This document shows, piece after piece, positions 35,144 through 62,106 of a stretch of 64,000 nucleotides of DNA. Within the stretch, counting starts at the first letter, position 1. Each line of letters opens with the position of its first letter. Made by a program: the position numbers and the translations under genes. Origin of the DNA: Kondoa subrosea (Eukaryota); NCBI GenBank assembly GCA_039545335.1, contig BCIN01000007.1, positions 1,046,530 through 1,110,529 of the forward strand, read 5' to 3'. The notes under the pieces were generated by a model. It worked only from the letters and a program-made list of their open reading frames with translations. It searched no databases and was not told the DNA's origin.

Positions 35144-36110
35144 TTACAAAAGCGATGCGGGCAGGATGTCATCTGAGACTAAATGCCTTGTAAGATCGGT
35201 AGGTGGTACTGTGATCAGATATCAGACCCAAATACTAATATGAGAAGTAATAGAACACACGCTGAGTGAATTGGCCAAATTCGAGCACTTCGAATTCGTC
35301 CGACACAACTTCCGCCAAGGTAGAAGAGCCCGGTTGGCTATTAGGTCTGCTCGATCAGCCTTGGTCTGGGAATGTTGAGCAAATGCACTGACGCTGCTGC
35401 CAAAACGAACTTCAGGCGATATCTTCCTGCAACTCTTACGCTCAAATCCCCAAACACGAAATAAGCGACTGCTTCTCCGCTTGATCCTTCAACGGTCTGC
35501 TTAACGTCAGACACTAGTCTGCCGACTAAAGCTTGTCTTTGCTGCTGCTGTTGAGGCAAGAAATCCATGTCTTGGTTTCCGTTGGCTCCTATCAGTGATG
35601 CGCTGCATATAAGAATGTTGGAATCCGTTCTGTTTTCGCGTACACATGGCAGAGTCAGCAAAACTTTTCTTCACTATTTGACCTTCATGGAGAAAGAGGA
35701 CATACATTTCTTCTAATTCTAGCTCTCTACCATCTTCTATGACAACGAGTTGCAAGACAGGAGGTGGTTGTATCGGAAGTCTACCAAGCAAGCGCAATTC
35801 TAGGCCTGCTGCCAGTCCTCTTTGCGGTTGTTGAACTATTCTGAGATCCATTCGTCTGTTTCGATGTCTCATCAGCACCGTCTCCTGTTGCTTAACAAGA
35901 GAAGAAGTCTTGCCTTTCTGGAGTAAGCGATAAAGATAATCTCTGTCTTCCGCCGCGGGATGAGGTTCGCGAAATGGAAGTAGTAGGCGAAGAAGAAGAG
36001 CCAGAGGATGAAGGTGGGTAAGCTGGTTGTTGGTGATGAGTAGTAAAAGCTGAGTCTTGCCCGACAGGATGGTTTGAGACCGGTTGTTGACCACGAGGAA
36101 AAGAGGCCAT
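35144..36110 (-). CDS. Velvet-domain regulatory protein
   Basis: DLRIVQQPQRGLAAG..LPIQPPPVLQL..LVGRLVS..AYFVFGDLSVRVAGRYRLKFVL..LAEVVSDEFEV..PTDLTRHL: the velvet fold signature. Exon 1 is joined via a GC-AG intron (35856-35913). Confidence 0.88.
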
Positions 36111-36645
36111 GATGTTCTTCTGGTAAAGTGGGATTCTTATCCTAATCTATCCACGCCTGGACACGAGGAGTCAGAGGCTAGAACTCTTGGGATGGCATGG
36201 CAAGAAGGGAACGCACCTTCTGTCTATTCAGTTGTCGGTAAGATTGGATTGAGATTAGTGATGCGCGAGAAGATTGACAAAAGATGAGTGAGTTGATACT
36301 GCTTTGTTATAAGCCGGGACGATAGCTGATGGGATCTGCCCGAACAGGTATCGATCAGTATTCCGAGCACCTTTGCGGGGGTGGAAACAACTCACTATTG
36401 AAATGCCAATACACAATCAGCCTCATTGCAGAACGCTGCAAAGATCCAATGAATGCAAGGTCAAATAAGCGGTCGAGAGTAGTTGTTTCAGCAGAAGGAG
36501 CGAGTGGACAGAAAGCGGACTCGGTGATGTAAGGGTATCTTCGTTTTGTCTGTTTTTACTTTTTTGCAGATCCTTTCTTGGTAATGGCGACGTAATCCAG
36601 CAGTGAAGTAAGCGGTAATTTTGAGTTTTCGCAAAAAGACGAATG

Positions 36646-43811: not shown

Positions 43812-44276
43812 ATAGGTTATGAACTATAGCAAAGGCTACTGAAGGTGCAAGGGAAAAGGCCAGCTCTGAGCAATACGGACAAAGTCTTCCTGCCAGGGAC
43901 TTGAATGAACGAACTGCTTGGCAACGAAAGTTGCGATGCAGATGCTGTACCAAGACTCCTGAGGAGCGCACAAAGAAAGCAGAAGTCAGCAGACTGAGGG
44001 CTGTGTTGCCCGTCGGAGTCAAAGGATAGAAATTGGTCAGATGAGTTTGATTCAGCCTGATTTTGAGTCGGAATGCTTGAGAAGGTGCATTCGAAGTTCA
44101 GCGAGAGGCACGTCATTATAGAACGGAGTGGACCTATGCTGCAAACGGTTTGGCGCAACATGAAAGCCAAACCGGACCTGGGTCATAGTCAAGAGCAACC
44201 GCAGGCTCATTTTACAGAGATACTATACCCCTATACAGTGTGCAGATCACATCTACATATCTCTCGCCCGGTAGAC

Positions 44277-47200
44277 CTAATGCAGAAATCCTGACTTCTT
44301 CCACGCCTGTACAAACTTCGTAACCAGGTCTTGAGTGACCGGTCCAGCTTGCTGAAGACTACTGGAGCGTAATGCCTCTGTGGTATCGACCTTGCGACCA
44401 CTTTGTGGCTTCCCTGAGTACTGCTCTTACTGTTAGGCTGAGCTGAAATGATAGTGAAGCAGAACATACAGCTGATTTCCACAAATCAAGCAATGCGAGA
44501 CTCGGAACAGTGTCGGCACTCTCATTGATGTCCTCTAGTTTCTCCAGCCATTCTCTAGGTGGAGTAGATGTGAAGTTTAGGCCGGCAGTATGCAACTGAT
44601 TGAGGATCTGAAGCCAAGTTGTGCTGACATCCGGATTGTAAAGATGATAGAAAGCTGGACCAGGATGTTCCGCTTGCGCCAGCTCAAGCATAGACTTTGC
44701 TGCAAGATCCACAGGTAGCCATGAAGGACTCTGCTGTCGGATCAGACAGTGTGTCAAGAGATGCGGCAATCTACTTACATCTTCGATCTCAGGCAAACAG
44801 CCAGTAGGCTCGCAAGAGTTGATGAGCAGCGGCCAACCTTCAGTCTCGTTCCAAATTCCTTGTTGTGTATCACCGCACAGCTGACCCAAGCGATACACAA
44901 TCACATCCAAGCCTTTCTGAGCAGCTTTCGCACATAGTTGCTCAGCGACCCATTTCGACTGAGCTTAACCCATAACTGCTGAATCTTCCGGATGAGAGGA
45001 CAGTTCCTCGACTGCTGGACTTTCCCGGCTTGGATTCAATACGGAAGCGATCGATGAGCAGAAGAGAAACAGCGGGCTGCTTTCGGTTTGTTTGGTCATG
45101 CACAGGTTCAAGAGATGAACAAGACCTGTTCAGGCTATTAGCAACTAAAACTTAACCTCTGTAATGACGAGATGAACCTTTGACTTGACTACTTTCGAAA
45201 CTACGCAAAGTCCAGCTGAAATTAACTGCCCACGCGCACTGCTGAAGAATCAGATCACATATCAAAATGGGAAGCATGCTCTCACATGTATCACCACATC
45301 TATTCGTGTCAGCTTCCTATGAAATTCCTGCGATAAGCCAAGATTGTCTTTCGATAAGTCGCTTGCCAAGCAAGTAACTTTCGCCATATCAAGTTTCACG
45401 AGACTTCTCTGCTTGAGTGAGGAATTGACTCGTGCGATTGCATCTTGGTCATCTTTGGCACGACAAAGGCAATAAACTCGTTCAACTTGGGTATTTTGTG
45501 ACAGCTGGTTCAGTAGATGGGCACCCAAGGCACCAGTCGCGCCTGTCAGTAGCTACAGGGGAGATCAGCTTTTTGACTTGAAGCTCACAGTTTTTGTGTA
45601 CTTACTACTGTACCGCAGATTTTCCGCCGTTTTGAACGATTCCGGTCGAATGATGCATTCTTGATAAGATCAGAGTTTCTAGCAGCCATATCTCTCATCA
45701 AATCTAGAACATCCACTTGAGTAGCATTAGATTGATCATTCTCTTGCAAAGCATGAATATGAGATGTTAGACTGGTCGATACATACTCAGCGCCGTACGG
45801 CTGAACAGAATCCGGATACTTACGACTTCAGAGAGGGATATTCAAAGACAACATTGCTAGCCAAAGATTGATTATTCAGGTTAACGGAACACTGTATTTG
45901 ACTTCTTATTCTAGTCGCTTGTAAGGAGTTTACACCCAGAGCAAACAGATCGGTATCTTCCTCTATCGCTTCTGACTTGACGTGTGAGGAAGCAACAATG
46001 ATAGAGCGCAAATGATTCATCAAATCAACCTTCGAAAGTCGTTGCTGGCTTGAAGCCGACTCTGATTTCGCCAAAGGAGGATTGTATAGTTCTTCGATAA
46101 TCGCAGAGTAGACTTGCTCTGCTTTCTTTTTCTGCACTGTTCCTTTACTGGTCTTCGGTAGCATAGAAGCATCTTGCACGAAAGCAATCATTTCAGGACC
46201 TATCTGACCAAAACTAGGTGCCGCGGCATTGGCTCGCTGTAGTGTGTCTTTCAACGCTTTGAGCAACTCTTCTCTAGTCAAGTCGACATGGGATGGAGAA
46301 GGAAAGAGCAAGCAACAGACTGAAGGTCGGTTTTGACCATAAATGAGGCATTCGCTTATCCGAGAGTCTGCCTTCAAGATTGATTCCATAGGCGCAGGTG
46401 ACACTTTCTCTCCATTAATCTATAAATTGTATGAGCCCAGGCAGAATGCACTTTAGTTAAAGCTCACCAGTACGAGCAAGTCGTCCGCTCGACCGAAATA
46501 TCGCCAAGCGTGAGGTAGCGAAGAATGCTTCTCGTACAGATCTCCAGTAGCGTAAGATCCGTCCGGTCGATTTCGTGCGTTCTATAGCGCATGTCAGCCC
46601 GTTGTCGGGCGAATACTTAGCTCGCGCACCAAAGAAGGCCAGTCTTTGTCAACTACCAATTCGGCCAGATCTCCTCCGTCTTGGATCTCAAACTGAAGCA
46701 TATCTTGTTGACCGATATCACGAAGATAGCTCCATTCCTTGTCTTGATCGAATTCCCTCCAAGAACTCATCAGGACTACACACTCAGATTGAGCACCGTT
46801 TTGAGGATCTGAAAGAAAAAAAGGAAAGGGAGACGAACAACCACATTCGCTAGATCCCATCCTACTGACTAATTTCCAGCCATAAGCCTTGACCATCTCA
46901 TCTCCGATTTCTTCTGGTAAAGGAGCACCACCAACAGAAATCATTTCCATCTTCGCCAACAGTTCTTTAGTTTCTTGGTTTTCGGCAAGCATATTGAGTA
47001 TATATGGTACAGCTAAGAAATATTTCACATCTTTGCAAGCTTGTATTGACGCAAAGACATTGGAAGCGGTTATTGGTTTGCTTGGCGTAAAGAGGTAGAG
47101 CACGCTTTCAGACATCATTGCTCGAAGTAGATCAGCTAAACCACCGTGATAGAGGGGAGTTGTGGTGAATGCTGCTACACCTGCTTTGCGAGGTAATGCA

Positions 47201-47979
47201 GTTGTCCAAACTTGATGAGTTTGATAGATCGGTTTCGGCATGCCTGTTGAGCCAGAAGTATGGAAAGCTACTGCAAGTGTTTCTGCTTCTTGTTTATTTG
47301 ATAGAACCCGAGGGAAAGATTCGATGGACTTGGGTAAGGTAGACGTATCGAAGGAACGAGTTTTCATCGGTATCAGTGGTACATCAAGCTTGGCAGTTGC
47401 TTCTTTGGCTAGTGCGGAAGTACGCTCATCATAGATCATTGACAAAGCTTTTGTACTTTGCAGTAGATTAACGACTGCATCAGCAGAGCATTGAGGTCTA
47501 CCAGAAACTCAGATAAGTCACTAGCAGTGAGCATTCAGAGACTAACGCTATCAGAAGACCGGCATAGCCTAATCGAAGCAGAGCTAGCCAATGTATAAGA
47601 AAGTCCAGCGAACTTGACGCCAGGATAGCGACAATCAATTGACTGGTTCCTTGCTCCTTCGTTCGAGCAGTGACTAGCTTTTCTTCTACTAATCGTCTTG
47701 CCAGAGCGTTAGAAGCTTGGTGTAGCTGAGCATAAGCTGTAACACATGAGCTACCACTTTCACTTCATCTTGCACAGACTCACTCAGGTCGGTACACGCC
47801 CATTGCGGTCCTCCTTCTGAGGTAGGCTCAGGCATGCCAACAGCGACCTGATCAGGAAGTCTAGCAGCCAGATCATCTAAAAGTTGATTGATCGAAGTGA
47901 TATCATGCGGATGCTGGGTATTGAGCTGTGCTGCCAGTTCACCTGTAGCAACCACATAGGGTATATCTTCAGCCTTCAT
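44277..47979 (-). CDS. NRPS-like adenylation-thiolation-reductase (A-T-R, carboxylic acid reductase type) with an in-frame TAA at 44965-44967; possible pseudogene allele
   Basis: A domain: FHTSGSTGMPKPI, TTPLYHGG, VGGAPLP, RMGSSECG, YATGDLYE, YFGRADDLLVL, NGEKVSP, LPKTSKG. T domain: DLFALGVNSLQATRIR. R domain: LLTGATGALGAHLL, FCSSIAS, MG*AQSKWVAEQL, YRLGQLCGD, WNETEGWP. Confidence 0.9.
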
Positions 47980-48216
47980 GCTTGTGTCAGAATAAGATTT
48001 CACGCAGAATCGCACAAGAGAGGAAAAATTACGTAATCCGGAGTCTGCCATAGCGAACGATTTATCAGCGCAAATGCGACAGCACCGTCTTCGAAATCTC
48101 TAACATTTTCTATTGGACAAGGTTTTTCTTTCTATCTAAAAGCCTCTATATTTTGTCATCTTCTTGTGGCACCGCGGAAGCCCTTCTGCCTCGAAGGATG
48201 GTTCTGAAAGTTCAAG

Positions 48217-49941
48217 CTACGGGCACTCAAAGACTCTTGCAGTACTAGCATTGATCCGTACCCATTTCTTCTGCTTCCAGAACATTTGCTTGAGCAGAAT
48301 CTAAAGTTCAATTTAGCGACTATTCTCTTCCGAACACAATAGAACTCACCCATGTCCACTGGAAGTGATATAAGGCAAAGAAAGGTATAGGATCTTGTAA
48401 ATCAAATGTCGGGTCCAGCGTATCCAATTTCACATCTTCCCAAGCTAAACTTTCCCAATATGGATGGACAATTTCCGTCGCTGGTAAAACAGCGGCTAAG
48501 AAACATGCTGGTATATCATGACCTAACCAAGAACAAGGTTTCGTGCCTTGAGGTGGTTTAGCGATACCCATTTGTTGGGTTGAGAGGTAAGCATGAGCGA
48601 AAGTAGGATTCGAGCGGAGAAGACATATTGCTGTGTGAATGCGAGGATTGCATTCGATTGGATAAAGCTCGCCGTCATCGGAAAGAATGAAGTCCTGTGG
48701 CCATCTGTCAGCAATGCGCGTGCTGCTGAGAAGAAAGGCAGACCATCGAAAAATGACCCTGCAGTATCTCGCTTGGTCCTCGCTCACTTTTTGCCCAGCT
48801 GGAAAGAAATTGCTCTGTCCAAGCTTCTGCTTTGGTGCCAACTTCAGTTGCAGTGTGATCCTCATATCGCATTCTACTCGGATCGTCAGCTGAAGCTGTA
48901 CTGGGCAGCCTTGCACTTACAACATATCATTACTAGGACAACAAACGAATGCGACCAGTTTCCCATCTTTGACTGTAGCATGCGTGCACCATTCTGATCC
49001 TTTAACGAATTGCTGAAGGATATAAGGTGTTTGTTCCGTCATGGGCACACTCAAGCCCTTTTGTAATCTTTGTAAAGTCTTGGGATAATCAGGACCGACA
49101 TCTCCAGCTAAAGGGTAATTGGTCATATCGTTTCGTCCTAAATCATCCAATACAGCAGTAGCTTTGAGAATCATTGGAAATTTGGATTGCTTTATTAGTT
49201 CGAGAGCTTTGGAAGGAGAAGAGACGACGTGTGATTCCGGAGTAGGCAGACCCATATCTTTGCACAGTTCCATAAAGAGGTCCTGTAGGCCTTTTTAACT
49301 TTCCTGAATTGCCGCTACCTTCTGACGGGACAAACCTTTTCGTGTAATGTCTTAGTCAAGTCTGGAGACGGGATGAAGCATTGTATTCTGCCATCACTTT
49401 CCTTCTTCATCATTTCCGCAGCTTTAGCATCTTCGACAGTTGTACCGGCGCCAGAACAAGGTATAAAGAGGTCAAACTTCTCCATCTCAGCTATACTAGC
49501 TAATGCATCCACATAAGCGTCCAAAGAATCTTGATTGCCTGGAATAGCGATCGGTAGCTTGTAGTACTTTGAAGTATATTTCGAGAACCGAGTAGCGCTG
49601 AAAGCTCCGTCTCTACAGACACAACAGATTAGTCATCAACTTCCCATCTACTTTCATACGGTCTGCTGCACTCACAAGCCTGATTCAGCTACAATCACTC
49701 GACATCCAGCTTTCCCTAATGCTCTCACTATCCCTAGCGATTTGTACATCTTTGCTCCATTGACCAAGACAGTTCGTTGAGGTCGATCATTGCCAATGAT
49801 GCCATTCCGATTCAAGCGCTGGTAGGCCAAGGCAAGAAAACATGCAAGAGCTGAAAATGGAGCAAGGCAGAAGGACAAGCCCAAGAGAAGGGCAGTAGAC
49901 AGCAGGAATTGAGCCTGTGTAGGTAGAGGCTTATTGCCCAT
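48217..49941 (-). CDS. mysC: ATP-grasp ligase, MysC type (mycosporine synthase)
   Basis: Hydrophobic N-terminus then RTVLVNGAKMYKSLGIVRALGKAGCRVIVAE, RFSKY, YVDALASIAEMEKFDLFIP, YILQQFVKGSEWCTH, DFILSDDGELYPIECNPRIHTAI, FDLQDPIPFFALYHFQW, KKWVRINASTARVFECP*. Same motif order as cyanobacterial and fungal MysC, recalled from memory. Confidence 0.85.
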
Positions 49942-50192
49942 TCCTCACAAATCGCTGTCCAAGAAAGAGAGAGCGGCTCAAATTAGGCGATCATCGAATT
50001 TATGTCATGGCAAAGTACTCGCGTCAGACTAGGGCTGCAAGAGCCGAAGAACAAGCTCATGGAGCGCATAGATATAAGTCACGTAGCATGCAATTGATCG
50101 AACTAGTTTTCATACAAAAATACTGAAAGGAAAGATCCCAAACCTGTGCATAACAAAACGACATTGCCCTACGTCCAGCTTGGCCAATGCTT

Positions 50193-52038
50193 TTAAGTCG
50201 AGTCGTCGGAAATTTTGGGGGCCAAGTAGAAGCGCACAGCACCTCCACCGAACTCATAGGCGACCTGGAATGCCAAGTCAGTATCGATTTCAAAGCATTG
50301 AGTGAAGAAAGACGACTTACTAGCAAAGGTACTTCATTGCTCATGTGTAGGTTGACATACTTGGACAGCGGTGTGCTCTTTGCGAAGTTGATCAAGTACT
50401 TGATTGAGAAAGTAAGTGCTACTGATTGTGAAAGTGTGATGGTGACCTGTAGGCATCAAATCCAATCGCAATCAGACACAAGACTGATCCAGCGCTGCTC
50501 AACACCTACATCGCGAGCTTCCTCATCATCTTTCTTGCTCTTGCCTTTGCCTTTCTTAGCAGTTGTCTGTGCAATGGCGACCCCGAGTTAGTTTGACACA
50601 GTAAACTATTCGTCGACTGTACGCACCTTTGCAGCAGGCTTCTTCTTGATCAGGCCTCCATTCTTAGGTTTCGCTTTTGCTTTACCATTGGTCTTTTCCT
50701 TCTTTGCCGAAACTTCAGGCTTGACATCAGAATTTGCACGTTTGCGTTTGTTAGCTGGGGTGTTTGAGTTGCTGCCCGTGAACTCGACTTCATCGTCATC
50801 GTCTGACTCAGCGATCGTCTTCTTCTTGCTCTTAGCCTTGATGTCAGGTTTCACATCTTCCTCATCTTCAGATTTCGGTTCCTGTTCAAGCTGTCATAAC
50901 TCACTGCGCAAAGGTAGTGAATGAAAGCAGCGACGAACCTTGTCATCTTCATCCATAGCAGCTTTCTCAACCTCTTCTTCCTCTTCCTCAGATCCACTCC
51001 CTTCCTCACTTTCGCTCTCATCATCCGAATCTTTCTTAGTAGAAGTATTGGTAGGTCTAACAGTAACGGCAGCTGTTCCAATATCTCCTTCAGCGGAAAA
51101 CTTGATGCCTTCTTTCGTTACTTCAATTTTGACCGATTCACCCAATTCTTTAATGTCTCGAACGATGCGAAGGAATTCTCCTGATGGCATAGTGATTTGA
51201 GCGTCGTATTGAGTATCAGGAATCGAAAGGTGTTCTACGAAATCGATACAATCTTCTAAGCATTTGGCAGCATGCATAAAGAGATCGCACTCGCCTTGAT
51301 CAATGTCCATCAACTTCATCTCATACTCTCCCATCCGATCAGATTCTGTACGCGATGCATAATAAAGAAACGACCTAAATCGATGCTAGATGTGATCACG
51401 CACTTCTGTTTTGGAAAACCATGCTCAAAGAATCCGAATCGTCGTCTGCCCTAATAGTGACTTCATCATCATTTCCAGCACACTTGAGTATTTTCTGTAA
51501 AGAGTTCAAGTTCATTCCCAAAGACATGTTGCGATCGCAGCGGTAACCATCTTCGAACATGCTTGTTCCTAATTCCAGTGAAACCAAAGCGATGTGGGAG
51601 TTGTCCATAGCTTGCAATTTCTGTGAGTATTCAGAGTTCGTCAAGCTTTCCAGAAAGCAGTATGAACAGATGCTACGCACCATTCCTTCTTCTGAACAGT
51701 CCCAGTTGGCATCAGTGACCAATTCTTTGATAGCTGTAAGATTGAAAGGTGGCCTTAGACTCTGCTGCGGTCTGCTATGCACTTCGCGCTCACAATCGAG
51801 AATCTTTTTTAGCTGTTCAGCTTTATCAATCTTTGCTTCCTGTTATCGCGTCAGAAACCAATCAGCTACTGCCCGTCCATCACGAGTGAAAGCAGTGAAG
51901 GAATATGAATAAAGTCGCGTCGAATTGGCCAATGCAGCATAAAGCGCTTGCAAGTGGTACGCGCGTGAGGGAGCACAAGGCAATCCAAAGGTCTGGGAAG
52001 ACAGCATACAACATGAGAAGCGCGAGACTTACAAGCAT
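50193..52038 (-). CDS. PCNA: Proliferating cell nuclear antigen with long charged insertion
   Basis: [80 protein letters not shown]..[insert]..[31 protein letters not shown]. Confidence 0.97.
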
Positions 52039-59187: not shown

Positions 59188-61976
59188 TCAGTCGATCGAT
59201 GTATCACTTGCAGCTGAAGGAGTGACGCCTAGAGTCATAGCACTAGCCATTCGAGGCAATCCGTTACTCGCACAGGGTTGACAGAGACGTGAGGTCTGTA
59301 CTTTCACATCAGAGGAAACACGTTTGTGGCTAAATATAGCGCTCACCTGCCAGACTGCACTCCTTTGAACAGATTCGTCCACTTGACAACCACAATTTGA
59401 GCACTCAGCAGTATTAGCTGACGAATTTTCTCTGCTTCGCTTGCGTCTTTCAGACCGAACATGTTCAAGCTCTTCTTTGAGTCTTCTGTTCGTCTGCTTC
59501 AGCGCATGTAATTCAAATCTGCAACATGAATTTGTCAGAACTTGGTCATGTCTGAAAAAGAAAGGAGCAAAGAACGCACAGCCAACTCGTGTTTCGAGCA
59601 GTACCCAATTCTTCAAACACATTGTCACTCTCAAAGTCTCTGAAAGGACTGATTGCGCCATTGATGGAACCCGAACTGTTTGATCCTCCGCCAAAAGGTA
59701 AATCAATAGACATGCCATCCGTTGAAGAGAAAGGTGATTTGACATCTACATTCTCAGGTTTAGGTAAATGAGGTACAGTAGATTCTTTTCTTCTTCTTCG
59801 AAGTTCAGAAGAATATTCATTGATTTGGAGTAAGACGAAAGGATAGCGTGAACCAGACTTTGGTTCGCCAGAGGGGTAGAAATTGGTAAAGACTTCAACG
59901 GGTTGACCGCGACGGTTCTTGAGGAAATGTCTTAGTCCAACTGCTGATCCTGTCGTTGCTTGACTTAAAGCTTGACTAACAGCTTCCGCGTGTTGAGGTG
60001 CAATGAGCTGGAATAAACTGGTGCCCTTCATTTCGGAAGATGAGAAACCCAGAATGTCATGCGCTGAAGGAGTGGTGTAAAGGAAAAGACCATTCGAGCT
60101 GACTTTGCTCCAGCATTCAAGTTCACCAAGTCCTCCAGCCGAAGTAAGCAGACTCCAGTTGAGTGAGTAGACAGGTCTTGGTCTTCCAGCAAGAATCACG
60201 GCCTGTCATTTACAGCGCACTTTCAAGCTTGACCTTAGAAAGCTGAAGATACGCGGCCACTAACCTTTCTGTTCTTAGTGGGTTCCAGATGCAATTTTCC
60301 AGAAAACTCTAACCAAGCCCAACCAGATCTCTTCCTCTTCATCCGATAGAGCAAATTAGCAGTCGAAGTAGGAACAGCATTCAAATCCTTGAATTCGCGT
60401 AAAATGGAAGCGACATCGCTTGTACCGGAAAGTATTGACACGTTCTGGTTCAGAAGTTCTGCAGAGTCGTACTCCAAGAATCGTTCGGTTGCTGGTGAGA
60501 CGTATAAGAGAATGCCTTTGAGGGACATGACCATGATCAAGCCATCATTCTGCTCGGATTAGTCAGTCAAAATGAATTGAAGCAATGAATTGACGACTGA
60601 CTGCTGCTAATAACGCTTTATGCAAGGCAGCTTTGCCAGGCTCGACAGAATCAGATTCACTGTAGGAGGAATCAAAGCTTTTCGGATTATAGTTTTGAGC
60701 TTTCATAAGTGATTGCGCCAAACTTTCTGGATCGTTTGCATAATCCGTGACTGAAGGTGCACCAGTCTGAAGTGTATGATTGACAGTATAAGTACCAGCT
60801 TGCATCTGTAGACGACATACATCACTTTCTAAGCTATGATACAGCTAAAAGCAATGTTCCGCCTACATTACCGATAATCAAATTTGGCTGTTCAACCAAA
60901 TCCAATTGGAACCCAATAAAGTATGCAATCTCATCGGTATCCCAAGTAATAGGAATAATGGTAACCAAGTTGATAAAGGGAGTTCCATCTTTCTTATAAT
61001 TGACTAAAGAAGTTTGCATTTCTTTTCCAGCCAGAATATGAGTCTTCATATGAAACACTCCATTTCCATCTGTATGTTTTCTTTTATCGCCTTGAGAAAC
61101 CAATCCATCCGGTGCTTGCAAAAATCGACAATTTCGACCAATAACTTCAGCATTGGTATAACCGGTTAAACGAGTAAAGTTATCGCTAGCGAAAACAATC
61201 GGGAAATCATATTTTCTAGCGTCGACGACTAAGAAGGAGCATGAAGTATCTACTGGTCCAATATCAATTTGTGGGTAAGGTCGAGCTGCTACTCTTGCCA
61301 AAACGCCCATAAGATCAAAACCGGAAGATGAATAGAGACCAGGGAAGTTGCCTCCAATGACTCGAGGTAGGCCAAGAGCATGAGGGTTGAAATCGTCTTT
61401 ACCTCCAGAAGAACCGGATGCGTGAGGTTGAAAAGGTGCTGCGAAATCTTTGAGACCACTGATGTCTGCTGTTTTGGAAAAAGGTGTTAGATCTGGATTG
61501 ACTGCGACTACAGAAGAGCCATAAGGTGAGTAGACAGGTCGTTGAGGATCTGGGACGTAAGGCGCTGTAGAAGGTTTCGGATGCTGTTGAGCATGATCAC
61601 CAAATGGTCGTTCTTGGTTGCTTCGAGTATTCTGAGATACTGCAGACTGAGGAGACATGCCAGAAGACTGCTGAGGCTCTTGTTGAGATTGATTACCAAA
61701 TGCAGAAGCATAGTTTGGGCGGGAAGTCAAAGCACCGCCAGGAGCAGGAGCCAAGAATGAAGGAACTTGAAAAGTGATGTTGGAAGCAAAGGCATCATCA
61801 CTGAGACCGTATTGCGAATAGTCGTCTTTGCGGTTCGAAGCAGCGTTGTTGCTATTTGCAGTGGAGGCATTATTTTGGGTAGAAGTGCTGGCTTCAGGTT
61901 GACTACTAGGCTGGCCATTATGCAGAGGCGCAGGAGACAGCAGCCAAGAGGAAATATTGAATGGGCTAGCCATGGT
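59188..61976 (-). CDS. wc-1: White Collar-1 blue-light photoreceptor (LOV plus two PAS domains)
   Basis: LYSSSGFDLMGVLARVAARPYPQIDIGPVDTSCSFLVVD..LTGYTNAEVIGRNCRFLQAPDG..LVNYKKDGTPFINLVTIIPI..FIGFQLDLVEQP; PAS-B (VMSLKGILLYVSP), PAS-C (WSKVSSNGLFLY), ELGTARNTSW..ELHALKQTNRRLKEEL. Confidence 0.96.
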
Positions 61977-62106
61977 CAACTTGTTTGATTTGTGTAGATT
62001 TGTCTTTGATAGTCGGACAGAGGACAGAACTTTATAGCAATTGCTGAGGTGCGTCTTCTAATCCACTTACTCCTTAGCTGTGATGGCCTCAGGACGGGGA
62101 CGACTT

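What the first reader, a model, noticed from the sequence alone, without database searches (positions are those of the whole stretch)
44965..44967. In-frame TAA exactly at the catalytic tyrosine of the reductase domain
Seen: the minus strand reads ATG GGT TAA GCT CAG TCG AAA TGG GTC GCT GAG = M G * A Q S K W V A E. Established: the thioester-reductase/SDR consensus is GYxxSKWVAE, so the stop replaces the YxxxK Tyr (TAY to TAA, one base). The frame is open and conserved on both sides and I found no other lesion in the parts of the gene I translated. Inference: either a very recent nonsense allele (predicting an unreduced mycosporine chemotype), a single-base assembly error, or, least likely, readthrough or editing that gates activity.
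Basis: partly seen in the sequence, partly recalled or inferred. Interest (0 to 1): 0.75.

Follow-up and report, generated by a model that had tools for sequence, protein, structure and literature searches.

The report
Nonsense codon in mycosporine-linked reductase gene
A fungal gene for a carboxylic-acid-reducing enzyme, sitting next to a sunscreen (mycosporine) ligase gene, carries one real premature stop codon exactly where its catalytic tyrosine should be. This most likely makes the strain a natural knock-out of an otherwise intact gene.

Summary
On the minus strand, 44967..44965 is an in-frame TAA inside ...SAVMG*AQSKWVAEQL. All 44 distant homologs and all 9 closer fragments (up to 78% identical) have Tyr there.

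The gene is a 12-exon A-T-R NRPS-like reductase (ATG 48051, stop 44279..44277). Its 1072 codons hold no other lesion, and it keeps 71 of 76 near-invariant family positions.

Independent contigs from two Illumina runs cover the site without difference at word depth 144.6 and 53.5. Both runs are from one sample, probably the source. An assembler error is therefore very unlikely. A minor or second allele cannot be excluded from contigs.

Readthrough, editing and an altered code lack support. The stop is TAA-G, there is no downstream structure, relatives have Tyr, and A-to-I editing cannot give Tyr.

The upstream neighbour is an apparently intact MysC/ATPG-type ATP-grasp ligase. A-T-R homologs lie beside DDGS and O-methyltransferase genes in four distinct metagenome contigs, and three genes from the ATP-grasp gene in Tilletia. 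The window itself holds no DDGS or O-MT gene.

Best reading: a recent loss-of-function nonsense allele. The allele is ordinary. The by-product is a candidate for the undescribed reductase that makes fungal mycosporine amino-alcohols.

The parts
44965..44967 (-). In-frame TAA, codon 876 of the A-T-R gene, at the place of the catalytic Tyr of the YxxxK pair
   Evidence: Tyr in 44 of 44 homologs and 9 of 9 closer fragments. No difference in the contigs of runs X1 and X2.
44277..48051 (-). A-T-R NRPS-like (adenylate-forming reductase) gene. It has 12 exons and 11 GT-AG introns of 47-63 nt at 47783-47737, 47546-47498, 46838-46776, 46629-46582, 46467-46420, 45823-45772, 45605-45553, 45285-45239, 45177-45126, 44778-44731 and 44469-44421. 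The natural stop TAG is at 44279..44277.
   Evidence: Spliced model, guided by tblastn of homologs. Pfam AMP-binding, AMP-binding_C_3, PP-binding and NAD_binding_4. 71 of 76 near-invariant columns kept.
44779..45125 (-). Exon 10, the part of the R domain holding the conserved FCSSIAS serine stretch, the stop in place of Tyr, and the Lys four residues later
45826..46011 (-). Carrier (T) domain with the phosphopantetheine serine (..LGVNSLQATR..)
   Evidence: PF00550 at 31.6 bits on residues 137-198 of ORF 45820-46419. Translation.
48217..49941 (-). MysC/ATPG-type ATP-grasp ligase gene directly upstream on the same strand. The hand-built model has 6 exons (49941-49676, 49612-49336, 49282-48921, 48873-48744, 48694-48350, 48300-48217), 487 codons and a TAG stop at 48219..48217. 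No lesion was seen.
   Evidence: Sequence. Exons 4-6 translate open and fit the family consensus. NF005315-like. 41% identity to the Phaffia rhodozyma ATP grasp ligase, E 1e-20. Exons 1-3 rest on the open frames and my reading of the splice sites only.
48052..48216 (.). Spacer of 165 bp between the ATP-grasp stop and the A-T-R start codon
   Evidence: Coordinates

Best explanation
The TAA is a genuine, evolutionarily recent single-base nonsense mutation (TAC or TAT to TAA) in the DNA that was sequenced. It lies in the thioester-reductase (R) domain of an A-T-R NRPS-like carboxylate reductase. Translation should end after residue 875. The product would keep the adenylation and carrier domains and the first part of the Rossmann fold. 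It would lack the Tyr-Lys proton relay and the whole C-terminal substrate-binding part, so it cannot release its thioester by reduction (inferred). The stop lies 186 nt upstream of the next exon junction and two introns follow, so the mRNA is probably also a target of nonsense-mediated decay (inferred). The gene sits 165 bp downstream of an apparently intact MysC/ATPG-type ATP-grasp ligase. It belongs to a group of A-T-R genes found beside DDGS and O-methyltransferase genes elsewhere. Its most likely normal job is therefore the reduction of the amino-acid carboxyl group that gives fungal mycosporines their amino-alcohol side chain (glutaminol, glutamicol, serinol). This could act on mycosporine-glutamine or on the free amino acid before ligation (inferred from gene neighbourhood only). 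In this strain that step is predicted to be lost.
For: - Sequence and frame.
- Tyr is invariant: 44 of 44 homologs and 9 of 9 closer fragments, the closest at 75% and 78% identity.
- The Tyr is essential in a fungal relative. In NcCAR, Tyr844 and Lys848 form the proton relay, both are 100% conserved, and Y844A is inactive (PMC10168641, passages read).
- The gene is otherwise intact: 11 GT-AG introns, 1072 codons, one internal stop.
- It is not decayed: 71 of 76 near-invariant columns are kept, against 0-11 misses in the 34 homologs compared.
- The base is real. The Logan contigs of X1 (75,110 nt, word depth 144.6) and X2 (9,670 nt, depth 53.5) cover the site with 0 other letters and 0 gaps.
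- The neighbour is MysC/ATPG-like. HMMER hits include the Phaffia rhodozyma 'ATP grasp ligase' and Aspergillus O-MT/ATP-grasp fusions. In 8 of 8 bacterial loci examined, out of 80 kept, the relative sits beside a DHQ_synthase-like and/or Methyltransf_3 gene.
- The A-T-R is linked to the pathway. Among the 23 best metagenome loci, 5 (4 distinct: L089, L091, L098=L099, L101) have DDGS and O-MT hits next to the A-T-R. L101 has the same order as the window, ATP-grasp then A-T-R on one strand.
- In Tilletia horrida the two genes carry locus tags three apart on the same contigs.
Against: - Only contigs could be laid, not raw reads, and both runs come from one sample that is probably the window's own source. 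A minor or second allele with Tyr would be dropped from contigs (text). The mutation cannot be said to be fixed in the species.
- No RNA data exist.
- The window has no DDGS or O-MT gene. None was found in ORFs of 110 aa or more over the whole 64 kb, nor in ORFs of 55-109 aa in 36-44.3 kb and 50-60 kb. The pathway may be split or already lost, and the genome could not be searched.
- 18 of the 23 metagenome loci showed no DDGS or O-MT beside the A-T-R. Two of these have 10 kb on both sides (L082, L083), though many others are short. Not every family member is cluster-linked, and I built no tree to place the window's gene.
- The published Phaffia cluster has only DDGS, O-MT and ATPG. Its abstract reports mycosporine glutaminol from these three genes in S. 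cerevisiae (PMC10057719). This argues that a dedicated reductase may not be needed, or that the host supplies one.
Confidence: 0.8

Rival explanations
1. The site is heterozygous or polymorphic in the sequenced culture. An intact TAY allele coexists with TAA (diploid, dikaryon or mixed population) and was collapsed out of both the assembly and Logan's contigs.
For: The output itself warns that contigs drop rare variants and show presence, not absence. No raw reads were available.
Against: Both runs give long unbroken contigs through the site (75 kb in X1, 9.7 kb in X2) with no alternative letters listed. X1's 18.8 million letters lie in 6,171 records, with the longest at 250 kb. This looks like a haploid or highly homozygous small genome (inference).
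Confidence: 0.1
2. Single-base sequencing or assembly error; the true codon is TAC or TAT.
For: Nothing found. It was a fair prior for a lone stop in an otherwise perfect gene.
Against: Two runs assembled by a different pipeline reproduce the window exactly over 4.5 kb, at word depth 144.6 and 53.5. The TAA is not in a homopolymer.
Confidence: 0.03
3. Leaky or programmed stop-codon readthrough. A fraction of ribosomes decode UAA with a near-cognate tRNA. In yeast about half of such events insert Tyr, which would recreate the native enzyme at a low, possibly regulated, level.
For: In S. cerevisiae, readthrough of UAA inserts Tyr at 54%, Gln at 42-44% and Lys at about 4% (PMC4150775, abstract and section 18). 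Basal leak would therefore give some wild-type protein. The gene shows no second lesion.
Against: - UAA followed by G is not a known leaky context (recalled: leaky sites favour C at +4 or stop-CARYYA; here it is TAA GCT CAG).
- The 120 nt downstream fold no better than shuffles (z -0.99, 35 of 200 shuffles as good).
- The stop is not conserved: 9 of 9 closer relatives encode Tyr.
- No tRNA gene lies in the window.
- Basal leak is usually well below 1% (recalled), and decay of the mRNA would lower it further.
Confidence: 0.04
4. RNA editing, or a variant genetic code in which TAA is read as an amino acid, restores an open frame.
For: None found.
Against: A-to-I editing of UAA can only give UAG, UGA or UGG (Trp), never Tyr (established chemistry). 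The gene uses TAC 7 times and TAT 17 times for Tyr, and TAA once. Stops including TAA fall in its introns. All three stop codons close long frames in the window (weak evidence).
Confidence: 0.01

Closest known systems
Fungal carboxylic acid reductase NcCAR (Neurospora crassa), A-T-R architecture, R-domain structure (PMC10168641)
   Same: Adenylation, carrier and SDR-type reductase domains. Ser, Tyr and Lys active-site residues with Tyr and Lys four apart. Loss of the Tyr (Y844A) abolishes reduction.
   Different: The window's gene belongs to a different, uncharacterised clade. Its best named hits are annotated 'L-aminoadipate-semialdehyde dehydrogenase' or 'related to LYS2' at 34-44% identity. 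Its substrate is unknown, and its Tyr codon is a stop.
Phaffia rhodozyma MYC cluster (DDGS, OMT, ATPG) for mycosporine glutaminol (PMC10057719; PMC5103461)
   Same: The window's ATP-grasp gene is a homolog of the genetically tested ATPG (41% identity over 122 aligned residues, E 1e-20). There is a precedent for strain-level loss of the pathway: strain CBS 6938 lacks the cluster and makes no mycosporine (PMC5103461).
   Different: The published cluster contains no A-T-R or any reductase. The window has the ATP-grasp plus A-T-R but no DDGS or O-MT.
Cyanobacterial mysA-mysB-mysC clusters with mysE (NRPS-like) or mysD (D-Ala-D-Ala-ligase-like)
   Same: A MysC-type ATP-grasp followed on the same strand by a second carboxylate-activating enzyme. 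L053 reads DHQS-like, O-MT, ATP-grasp, NRPS. L066, L001, L002 and L005 have a Ddl-like gene after the ATP-grasp.
   Different: MysE in L053 is C-A-T-TE and adds a second amino acid. The fungal partner is A-T-R, with no condensation or thioesterase domain, so a reductive release is expected.
Four-gene eukaryote-like cluster on metagenome contig L101 (ATP-grasp, A-T-R, DDGS, O-MT)
   Same: Same order and strand for ATP-grasp then A-T-R. The A-T-R is 42% identical in the compared exon, and Pfam domains are confirmed.
   Different: L101 also has DDGS and O-MT within 5 kb, and its A-T-R was picked up through the GY[SA]QSKW or R[LI]GQLCGD patterns and aligned across the site. The organism is unknown.

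Membership tests
SDR-type thioester reductase (R) domain, Pfam PF07993 NAD_binding_4 | Profile match above the curated cut-off | tested here: met
   80.8 bits (exon 45262-45552) and 47.3 bits (P0001), against a cut-off of 20.1
SDR-type thioester reductase (R) domain, Pfam PF07993 NAD_binding_4 | Glycine-rich NAD(P)H-binding motif at the start of the domain (TGxTGxxG; the motif form is recalled) | tested here: met
   ..LLTGATGALGAHL.. in the spliced translation
SDR-type thioester reductase (R) domain, Pfam PF07993 NAD_binding_4 | Catalytic Tyr of the YxxxK pair | tested here: not met
   The codon is TAA. Tyr is present in 44 of 44 and 9 of 9 relatives.
SDR-type thioester reductase (R) domain, Pfam PF07993 NAD_binding_4 | Lys four residues after the Tyr, and the upstream active-site Ser | tested here: met
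   K at +4. A Ser of the conserved FCSSIAS stretch lies 29 residues before the stop, the same spacing as Ser815 to Tyr844 in NcCAR. This is by position only, with no structural alignment.
A-T-R NRPS-like adenylate-forming reductase | AMP-binding, AMP-binding_C_3, PP-binding with its serine, and a terminal R domain in one gene, without a condensation domain | tested here: met
   (PF00501 69.3 bits, PF23562 108.5 bits, PF00550 31.6 bits, PF07993). Collinear tblastn to full-length homologs. One open spliced frame apart from codon 876.
MysC / ATPG mycosporine ATP-grasp ligase (the neighbouring gene) | Homology to a genetically tested member, and relatives that sit in DDGS/O-MT clusters | tested here: met
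   Phaffia ATPG at E 1e-20. O-MT fusions in Aspergillus. 8 of 8 bacterial loci examined have DHQ_synthase-like and/or Methyltransf_3 neighbours.
Mycosporine biosynthetic gene cluster (DDGS, O-MT, ATP-grasp) | A DDGS/EEVS-type sugar-phosphate cyclase (PF01761) in the locus | tested here: not met
   No PF01761 hit in 90 ORFs of 110 aa or more over the whole window outside the two genes (the pieces of the two genes themselves are), nor in 116 ORFs of 55-109 aa near the pair. The rest of the genome was not searchable.
Mycosporine biosynthetic gene cluster (DDGS, O-MT, ATP-grasp) | A Methyltransf_3 O-methyltransferase in the locus | tested here: not met
   The same scans gave no PF01596 hit
Mycosporine biosynthetic gene cluster (DDGS, O-MT, ATP-grasp) | Physical linkage of this A-T-R family to the core genes in other genomes | tested here: met
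   5 of 23 metagenome loci examined (4 distinct) carry DDGS and O-MT beside the A-T-R. Tilletia horrida locus tags are three apart. 18 of 23 loci showed none.
Programmed stop-codon readthrough site | Leaky context, stimulatory downstream structure, and a stop conserved in relatives | tested here: not met
   TAA GCT CAG. Fold z -0.99. Relatives encode Tyr.

The most novel reading that the evidence does not exclude
The A-T-R enzyme family found here next to the MysC-type ligase is the long-missing carboxylate reductase that makes the amino-alcohol side chains (glutaminol, glutamicol, serinol) of fungal mycosporines. The sequenced strain is a natural null for it. If DDGS and O-MT exist elsewhere in its genome, it should accumulate the acid form (mycosporine-glutamine) instead of glutaminol. 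Rare UAA readthrough, which in yeast inserts Tyr about half the time, would be the only source of active enzyme.
Probability: 0.35. Interest if true: 0.7.

Novelty: new member of a known kind. Interest (0 to 1): 0.38.

Why it matters
A lone nonsense mutation is ordinary gene decay and would not matter much on its own. It matters here for two reasons.

First, it flags a gene pair (MysC-type ligase plus A-T-R reductase). The comparisons made here connect that pair to mycosporine core genes in several fungi and eukaryote-like metagenome contigs. The papers found in my searches describe the fungal cluster as only three genes and leave the origin of the reduced side chain unexplained.

Second, a strain with a clean single-codon knock-out of the reductase is a ready-made experiment. 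Comparing its UV-absorbing compounds with those of a relative that keeps the Tyr would test the proposed function without any genetic engineering.

Tried and rejected
- **Whole-genome search:** not possible. One search reports that no genome is held, so DDGS or O-MT elsewhere in the genome could not be checked.
- **RNA evidence:** no RNA holder was listed, so there is no evidence on expression, splicing or editing.
- **Raw reads:** only Logan contigs were served, so allele fractions are unknown.
- **Earlier notes of this scan:** nothing for this genome, this sequence or fungal mycosporine reductases. The 8 of 17 'mycosporine' notes shown were all bacterial and unrelated.
- **Word-based search with the ATP-grasp C-terminal ORF:** only 3 weak Ustilago hits. 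The PDB sequence search gave 0 hits. The protein atlas gave only generic ATP-grasp clusters. The exhaustive HMMER search was what placed the family.
- **Literature:** searches on mycosporine with glutaminol, NRPS-like, reductase, thioester and adenylation, and passages in PMC10057719, PMC5103461, PMC10666671, PMC10512386 and PMC11303440, found no paper assigning the reduction to an A-T-R enzyme. This library misses most subscription journals.
- **An intron removing the TAA:** rejected by reading. The only in-frame GT..AG pair I saw (GTATTG to the CAG just before TCG AAA) would delete 28 codons including the Tyr position and has no branch-site-like sequence. This is reading only, not tested.
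- **Stop-codon usage at the ends of long frames:** uninformative, because frames were defined by the same stops.
- **HSP90 C-terminus as a stop-codon check:** the motif is not in the window.
- **Script for the ATP-grasp gene model and a conservation count:** Exons 1-3 of that model therefore rest on my reading and the open frames. No conservation count exists for that gene.
- **Phylogeny:** no tree was built to show whether the window's A-T-R falls inside the cluster-linked clade. Identities in the 117-residue exon do not separate linked loci (37-46%) from unlinked ones (40-45%).
- **Pfam on L091 frames:** gave nothing for the DDGS and O-MT region because I picked the wrong frames. The tblastn hits stand (E 6e-59 and 1.7e-11).
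Full report
**1. The observation**

The minus strand at 44973..44941 reads ATG GGT TAA GCT CAG TCG AAA TGG GTC GCT GAG. TAA occupies 44967..44965, as reported. With TAA read as X, the frame runs open on both sides...EELSSHPEDSAVMGXAQSKWVAEQLCAKAAQKGLDVIVYRLGQLCGDT....

Pfam places this stretch in NAD_binding_4 (PF07993), the family of thioester-reductase domains. The scores are 47.3 bits here and 80.8 bits for the preceding exon, against a cut-off of 20.1.

A search of the large protein collection for longer proteins gave 44 hits with E up to 0.001. All 44 carry G-Y at the aligned place, in the motif GY[ASG]xSK. A second search for short fragments gave 9 hits. All 9 have Tyr there, including the two closest relatives at 75% and 78% identity.

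**2. The gene**

The window is eukaryotic. Coding frames are broken every few hundred bases by short stretches bounded by GT and AG. I built a spliced model guided by tblastn alignments of four homologs:

- The start is ATG at 48051.
- There are 12 exons and 11 introns of 47-63 nt, all GT-AG.
- There are 1072 codons, with the natural stop TAG at 44279..44277.
- There is a single internal stop, codon 876.

Each chosen junction reproduces the homologs' local sequence, for example SSECG|FLMSS, DDLLVL|INGEKVSP and VIH|CAWAVNF.

The domains are AMP-binding, AMP-binding_C_3, PP-binding and NAD_binding_4. This is an A-T-R NRPS-like adenylate-forming reductase. Named relatives are mostly annotated as L-aminoadipate-semialdehyde dehydrogenase or 'related to LYS2'. 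Identity in the R domain is only 34-44%.

The gene is not a decayed pseudogene. I aligned it with 34 homologs longer than 900 residues, after dropping 4 shorter ones of the 38 fungal hits. It keeps 71 of 76 columns that are at least 95% conserved. Its misses are V339I, G494C, R556K, A871S and the stop. The homologs themselves miss 0 to 11 each.

**3. Is the base real?**

No whole genome is held for this window. One search for public runs found two DNA runs of one sample and one study, both holding all sampled words. They are marked as the possible source of this DNA, and no RNA run was found.

Both runs are kept as Logan contigs, which come from an assembly independent of the window's. Laid on 43900-48400:

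- X1 covers the whole stretch with one 75,110-nt contig at word depth 144.6.
- X2 covers 44207-48400 with a 9,670-nt contig at depth 53.5.
- Both show 0 other letters and 0 gaps.

An adapter-like loose end in X2 at 44236 is consistent with short-read Illumina data. An assembler or consensus error is therefore very unlikely.

Three things cannot be said. A minority or second allele may exist, because contigs drop variants. The runs are not independent of the strain. And it is unknown whether the mutation is fixed in the species.

**4. Readthrough, editing, altered code**

*Altered code.* The gene encodes Tyr 24 times with TAC (7) or TAT (17), and has TAA once. Stops including TAA fall in its introns. 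An altered code is not supported.

*Editing.* A-to-I editing of UAA can give only UAG, UGA or UGG, never a Tyr codon.

*Readthrough.* In S. cerevisiae, near-cognate decoding of UAA inserts Tyr (54%), Gln (42-44%) and Lys (about 4%) (PMC4150775, abstract and section 18). Basal leak would therefore recreate some native enzyme. Nothing suggests more than basal leak:

- The context is TAA GCT CAG, with G at +4. From memory, leaky sites favour C at +4 or the motif stop-CARYYA.
- The 120 nt downstream fold no better than shuffles (z -0.99).
- The stop is not conserved in relatives.
- The window holds no tRNA gene.

*Splicing.* I also looked by eye for an intron that could remove the codon. The only in-frame candidate would delete 28 codons including the Tyr position, so splicing cannot restore the active site.

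**5. Consequence**

In the fungal carboxylic acid reductase NcCAR, Tyr844 and Lys848 form the proton relay. Both are 100% conserved, and the Y844A enzyme reduces neither thioester nor aldehyde (PMC10168641, passages read).

Here translation should stop after residue 875. That removes the Tyr, the Lys and the whole C-terminal part of the R domain. The product could at best adenylate and load its substrate. The stop lies 186 nt before the next exon junction and two introns follow. Nonsense-mediated decay is likely (inference).

**6. The neighbourhood and the mycosporine claim**

*The neighbouring gene.* Directly upstream on the same strand, 165 bp from the A-T-R start, lies an ATP-grasp gene. 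I read its model by hand: 6 exons from 49941 to 48217, 487 codons, stop TAG at 48219..48217. Exons 4-6 translate open. They fit the family consensus ...LTGxxSFDFIxxxxGxLYPIECNPRxHTAV... and the C-terminal WxRxNVSTxxxFE. I saw no lesion. Exons 1-3 rest on open frames and my reading of the splice sites.

*Its family.* Pfam barely recognises the gene, and NCBIfam gives NF005315. An exhaustive HMMER search gave 113 hits. They include:

- the cluster of the Phaffia rhodozyma 'ATP grasp ligase', which a direct comparison puts at 41% identity over 122 aligned residues, E 1e-20;
- two Aspergillus proteins that fuse a Methyltransf_3 O-methyltransferase to this ATP-grasp.

A scan of prokaryote genomes found 598 relatives among 602 pattern matches. 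The best 80 are mostly cyanobacteria and actinobacteria. In all 8 loci I examined, the relative sits beside a DHQ_synthase-like gene (6 of 8) and/or a Methyltransf_3 gene (7 of 8). L053 shows the classic DHQS-like, O-MT, ATP-grasp, NRPS row. The neighbour is therefore a MysC/ATPG-type mycosporine ligase.

*Linkage of the A-T-R to the pathway.* This goes beyond the window:

- In Tilletia horrida, A-T-R homologs OC844_005084 and OC842_006536 and ATP-grasp homologs OC844_005087 and OC842_006539 lie on the same contigs, three locus tags apart.
- A scan of metagenome contigs with the R-domain exon alignment kept 80 loci. Among the best 23, five carry DDGS and O-MT hits next to the A-T-R. Four are distinct, because L098 and L099 look like the same sequence. 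These are L089 and L091 (intron-rich), L098/L099 and L101.
- L101 has ATP-grasp, A-T-R, DDGS and O-MT within 10.5 kb. The ATP-grasp precedes the A-T-R on one strand, as in the window. Pfam confirms AMP-binding, NAD_binding_4, DHQ_synthase and Methyltransf_3 there.

*Evidence against.*

- 18 of the 23 loci showed no such neighbours. Many are short, but L082 and L083 have 10 kb on both sides.
- The window itself has no DDGS or O-MT in any ORF of 110 aa or more, nor in ORFs of 55-109 aa within 36-44.3 kb and 50-60 kb.
- The published Phaffia cluster has only DDGS, OMT and ATPG. Its abstract reports mycosporine glutaminol from those three genes in S. cerevisiae (PMC10057719).

Three literature searches and the passages read found no paper that assigns the reduction step to an A-T-R enzyme. 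The library lacks most subscription journals.

**7. Verdict**

The finding is real and is best explained as a recent loss-of-function nonsense allele in an otherwise intact gene (confidence 0.8). That is an ordinary kind of event. Natural loss of mycosporine synthesis among strains is already documented for Phaffia rhodozyma CBS 6938 (PMC5103461).

The placement of the stop on the catalytic Tyr is a coincidence: 2 of about 433 single-base routes to a stop in this gene.

The added value is contextual. The A-T-R family is a credible, apparently undescribed candidate for the enzyme that makes the amino-alcohol moiety of fungal mycosporines, and this strain would be a natural null for it. Whether the strain still has the rest of the pathway is unknown.

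The organism was not identified. The homolog ranges, the many introns of about 50 nt and the roughly 19 million letters of contigs per run suggest a small-genome fungus, probably a basidiomycete yeast (inference).

Noticed in passing
window 50057-51842 (minus strand): The PCNA gene seems to carry a long, highly charged insert. The PCNA_C profile breaks between positions 67 and 69. Between the two pieces lie an acidic run (..[33 protein letters not shown]..) and a 95-codon open frame rich in K, E and D (50606-50893). PCNA is normally very constant in length.
   Followed up: no
L101 3258-15516 (metagenome contig): A compact eukaryote-like locus with an aldo/keto reductase, a MysC-like ATP-grasp, an A-T-R, a DDGS (one intron) and an O-MT. 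This four-gene mycosporine-type cluster includes a reductase that the fungal literature I read does not list.
   Followed up: partly
P0073 (791 aa) and P0082 (745 aa), Aspergillus species: Single proteins that fuse a Methyltransf_3 O-methyltransferase to a MysC-type ATP-grasp domain.
   Followed up: no
P0002 (1228 aa, Cylindrobasidium torrendii): This A-T-R homolog shows the GYAQSKWVVEKL motif twice, 194 residues apart. This suggests a duplicated part of the R domain.
   Followed up: no
window 59188-62057 and 35507-36136 (minus strand): A PAS/LOV-type (PAS_9) gene resembling a white-collar photoreceptor and a velvet-domain gene lie in the same 64 kb as the sunscreen-related pair. No link was tested.
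   Followed up: no
P0183 (Logan fragment, 75% identical to exon 10): The closest relative's open frame runs straight from the CAWAVNF exon into the exon homologous to exon 10. Either that species lacks the window's intron 9 or the fragment comes from RNA.
   Followed up: no
window 44207-44236: In run X2 the contigs break here, with a 19-letter adapter-like loose end. This is a library artefact 40 nt downstream of the gene's stop codon and is unrelated to the TAA.
   Followed up: no
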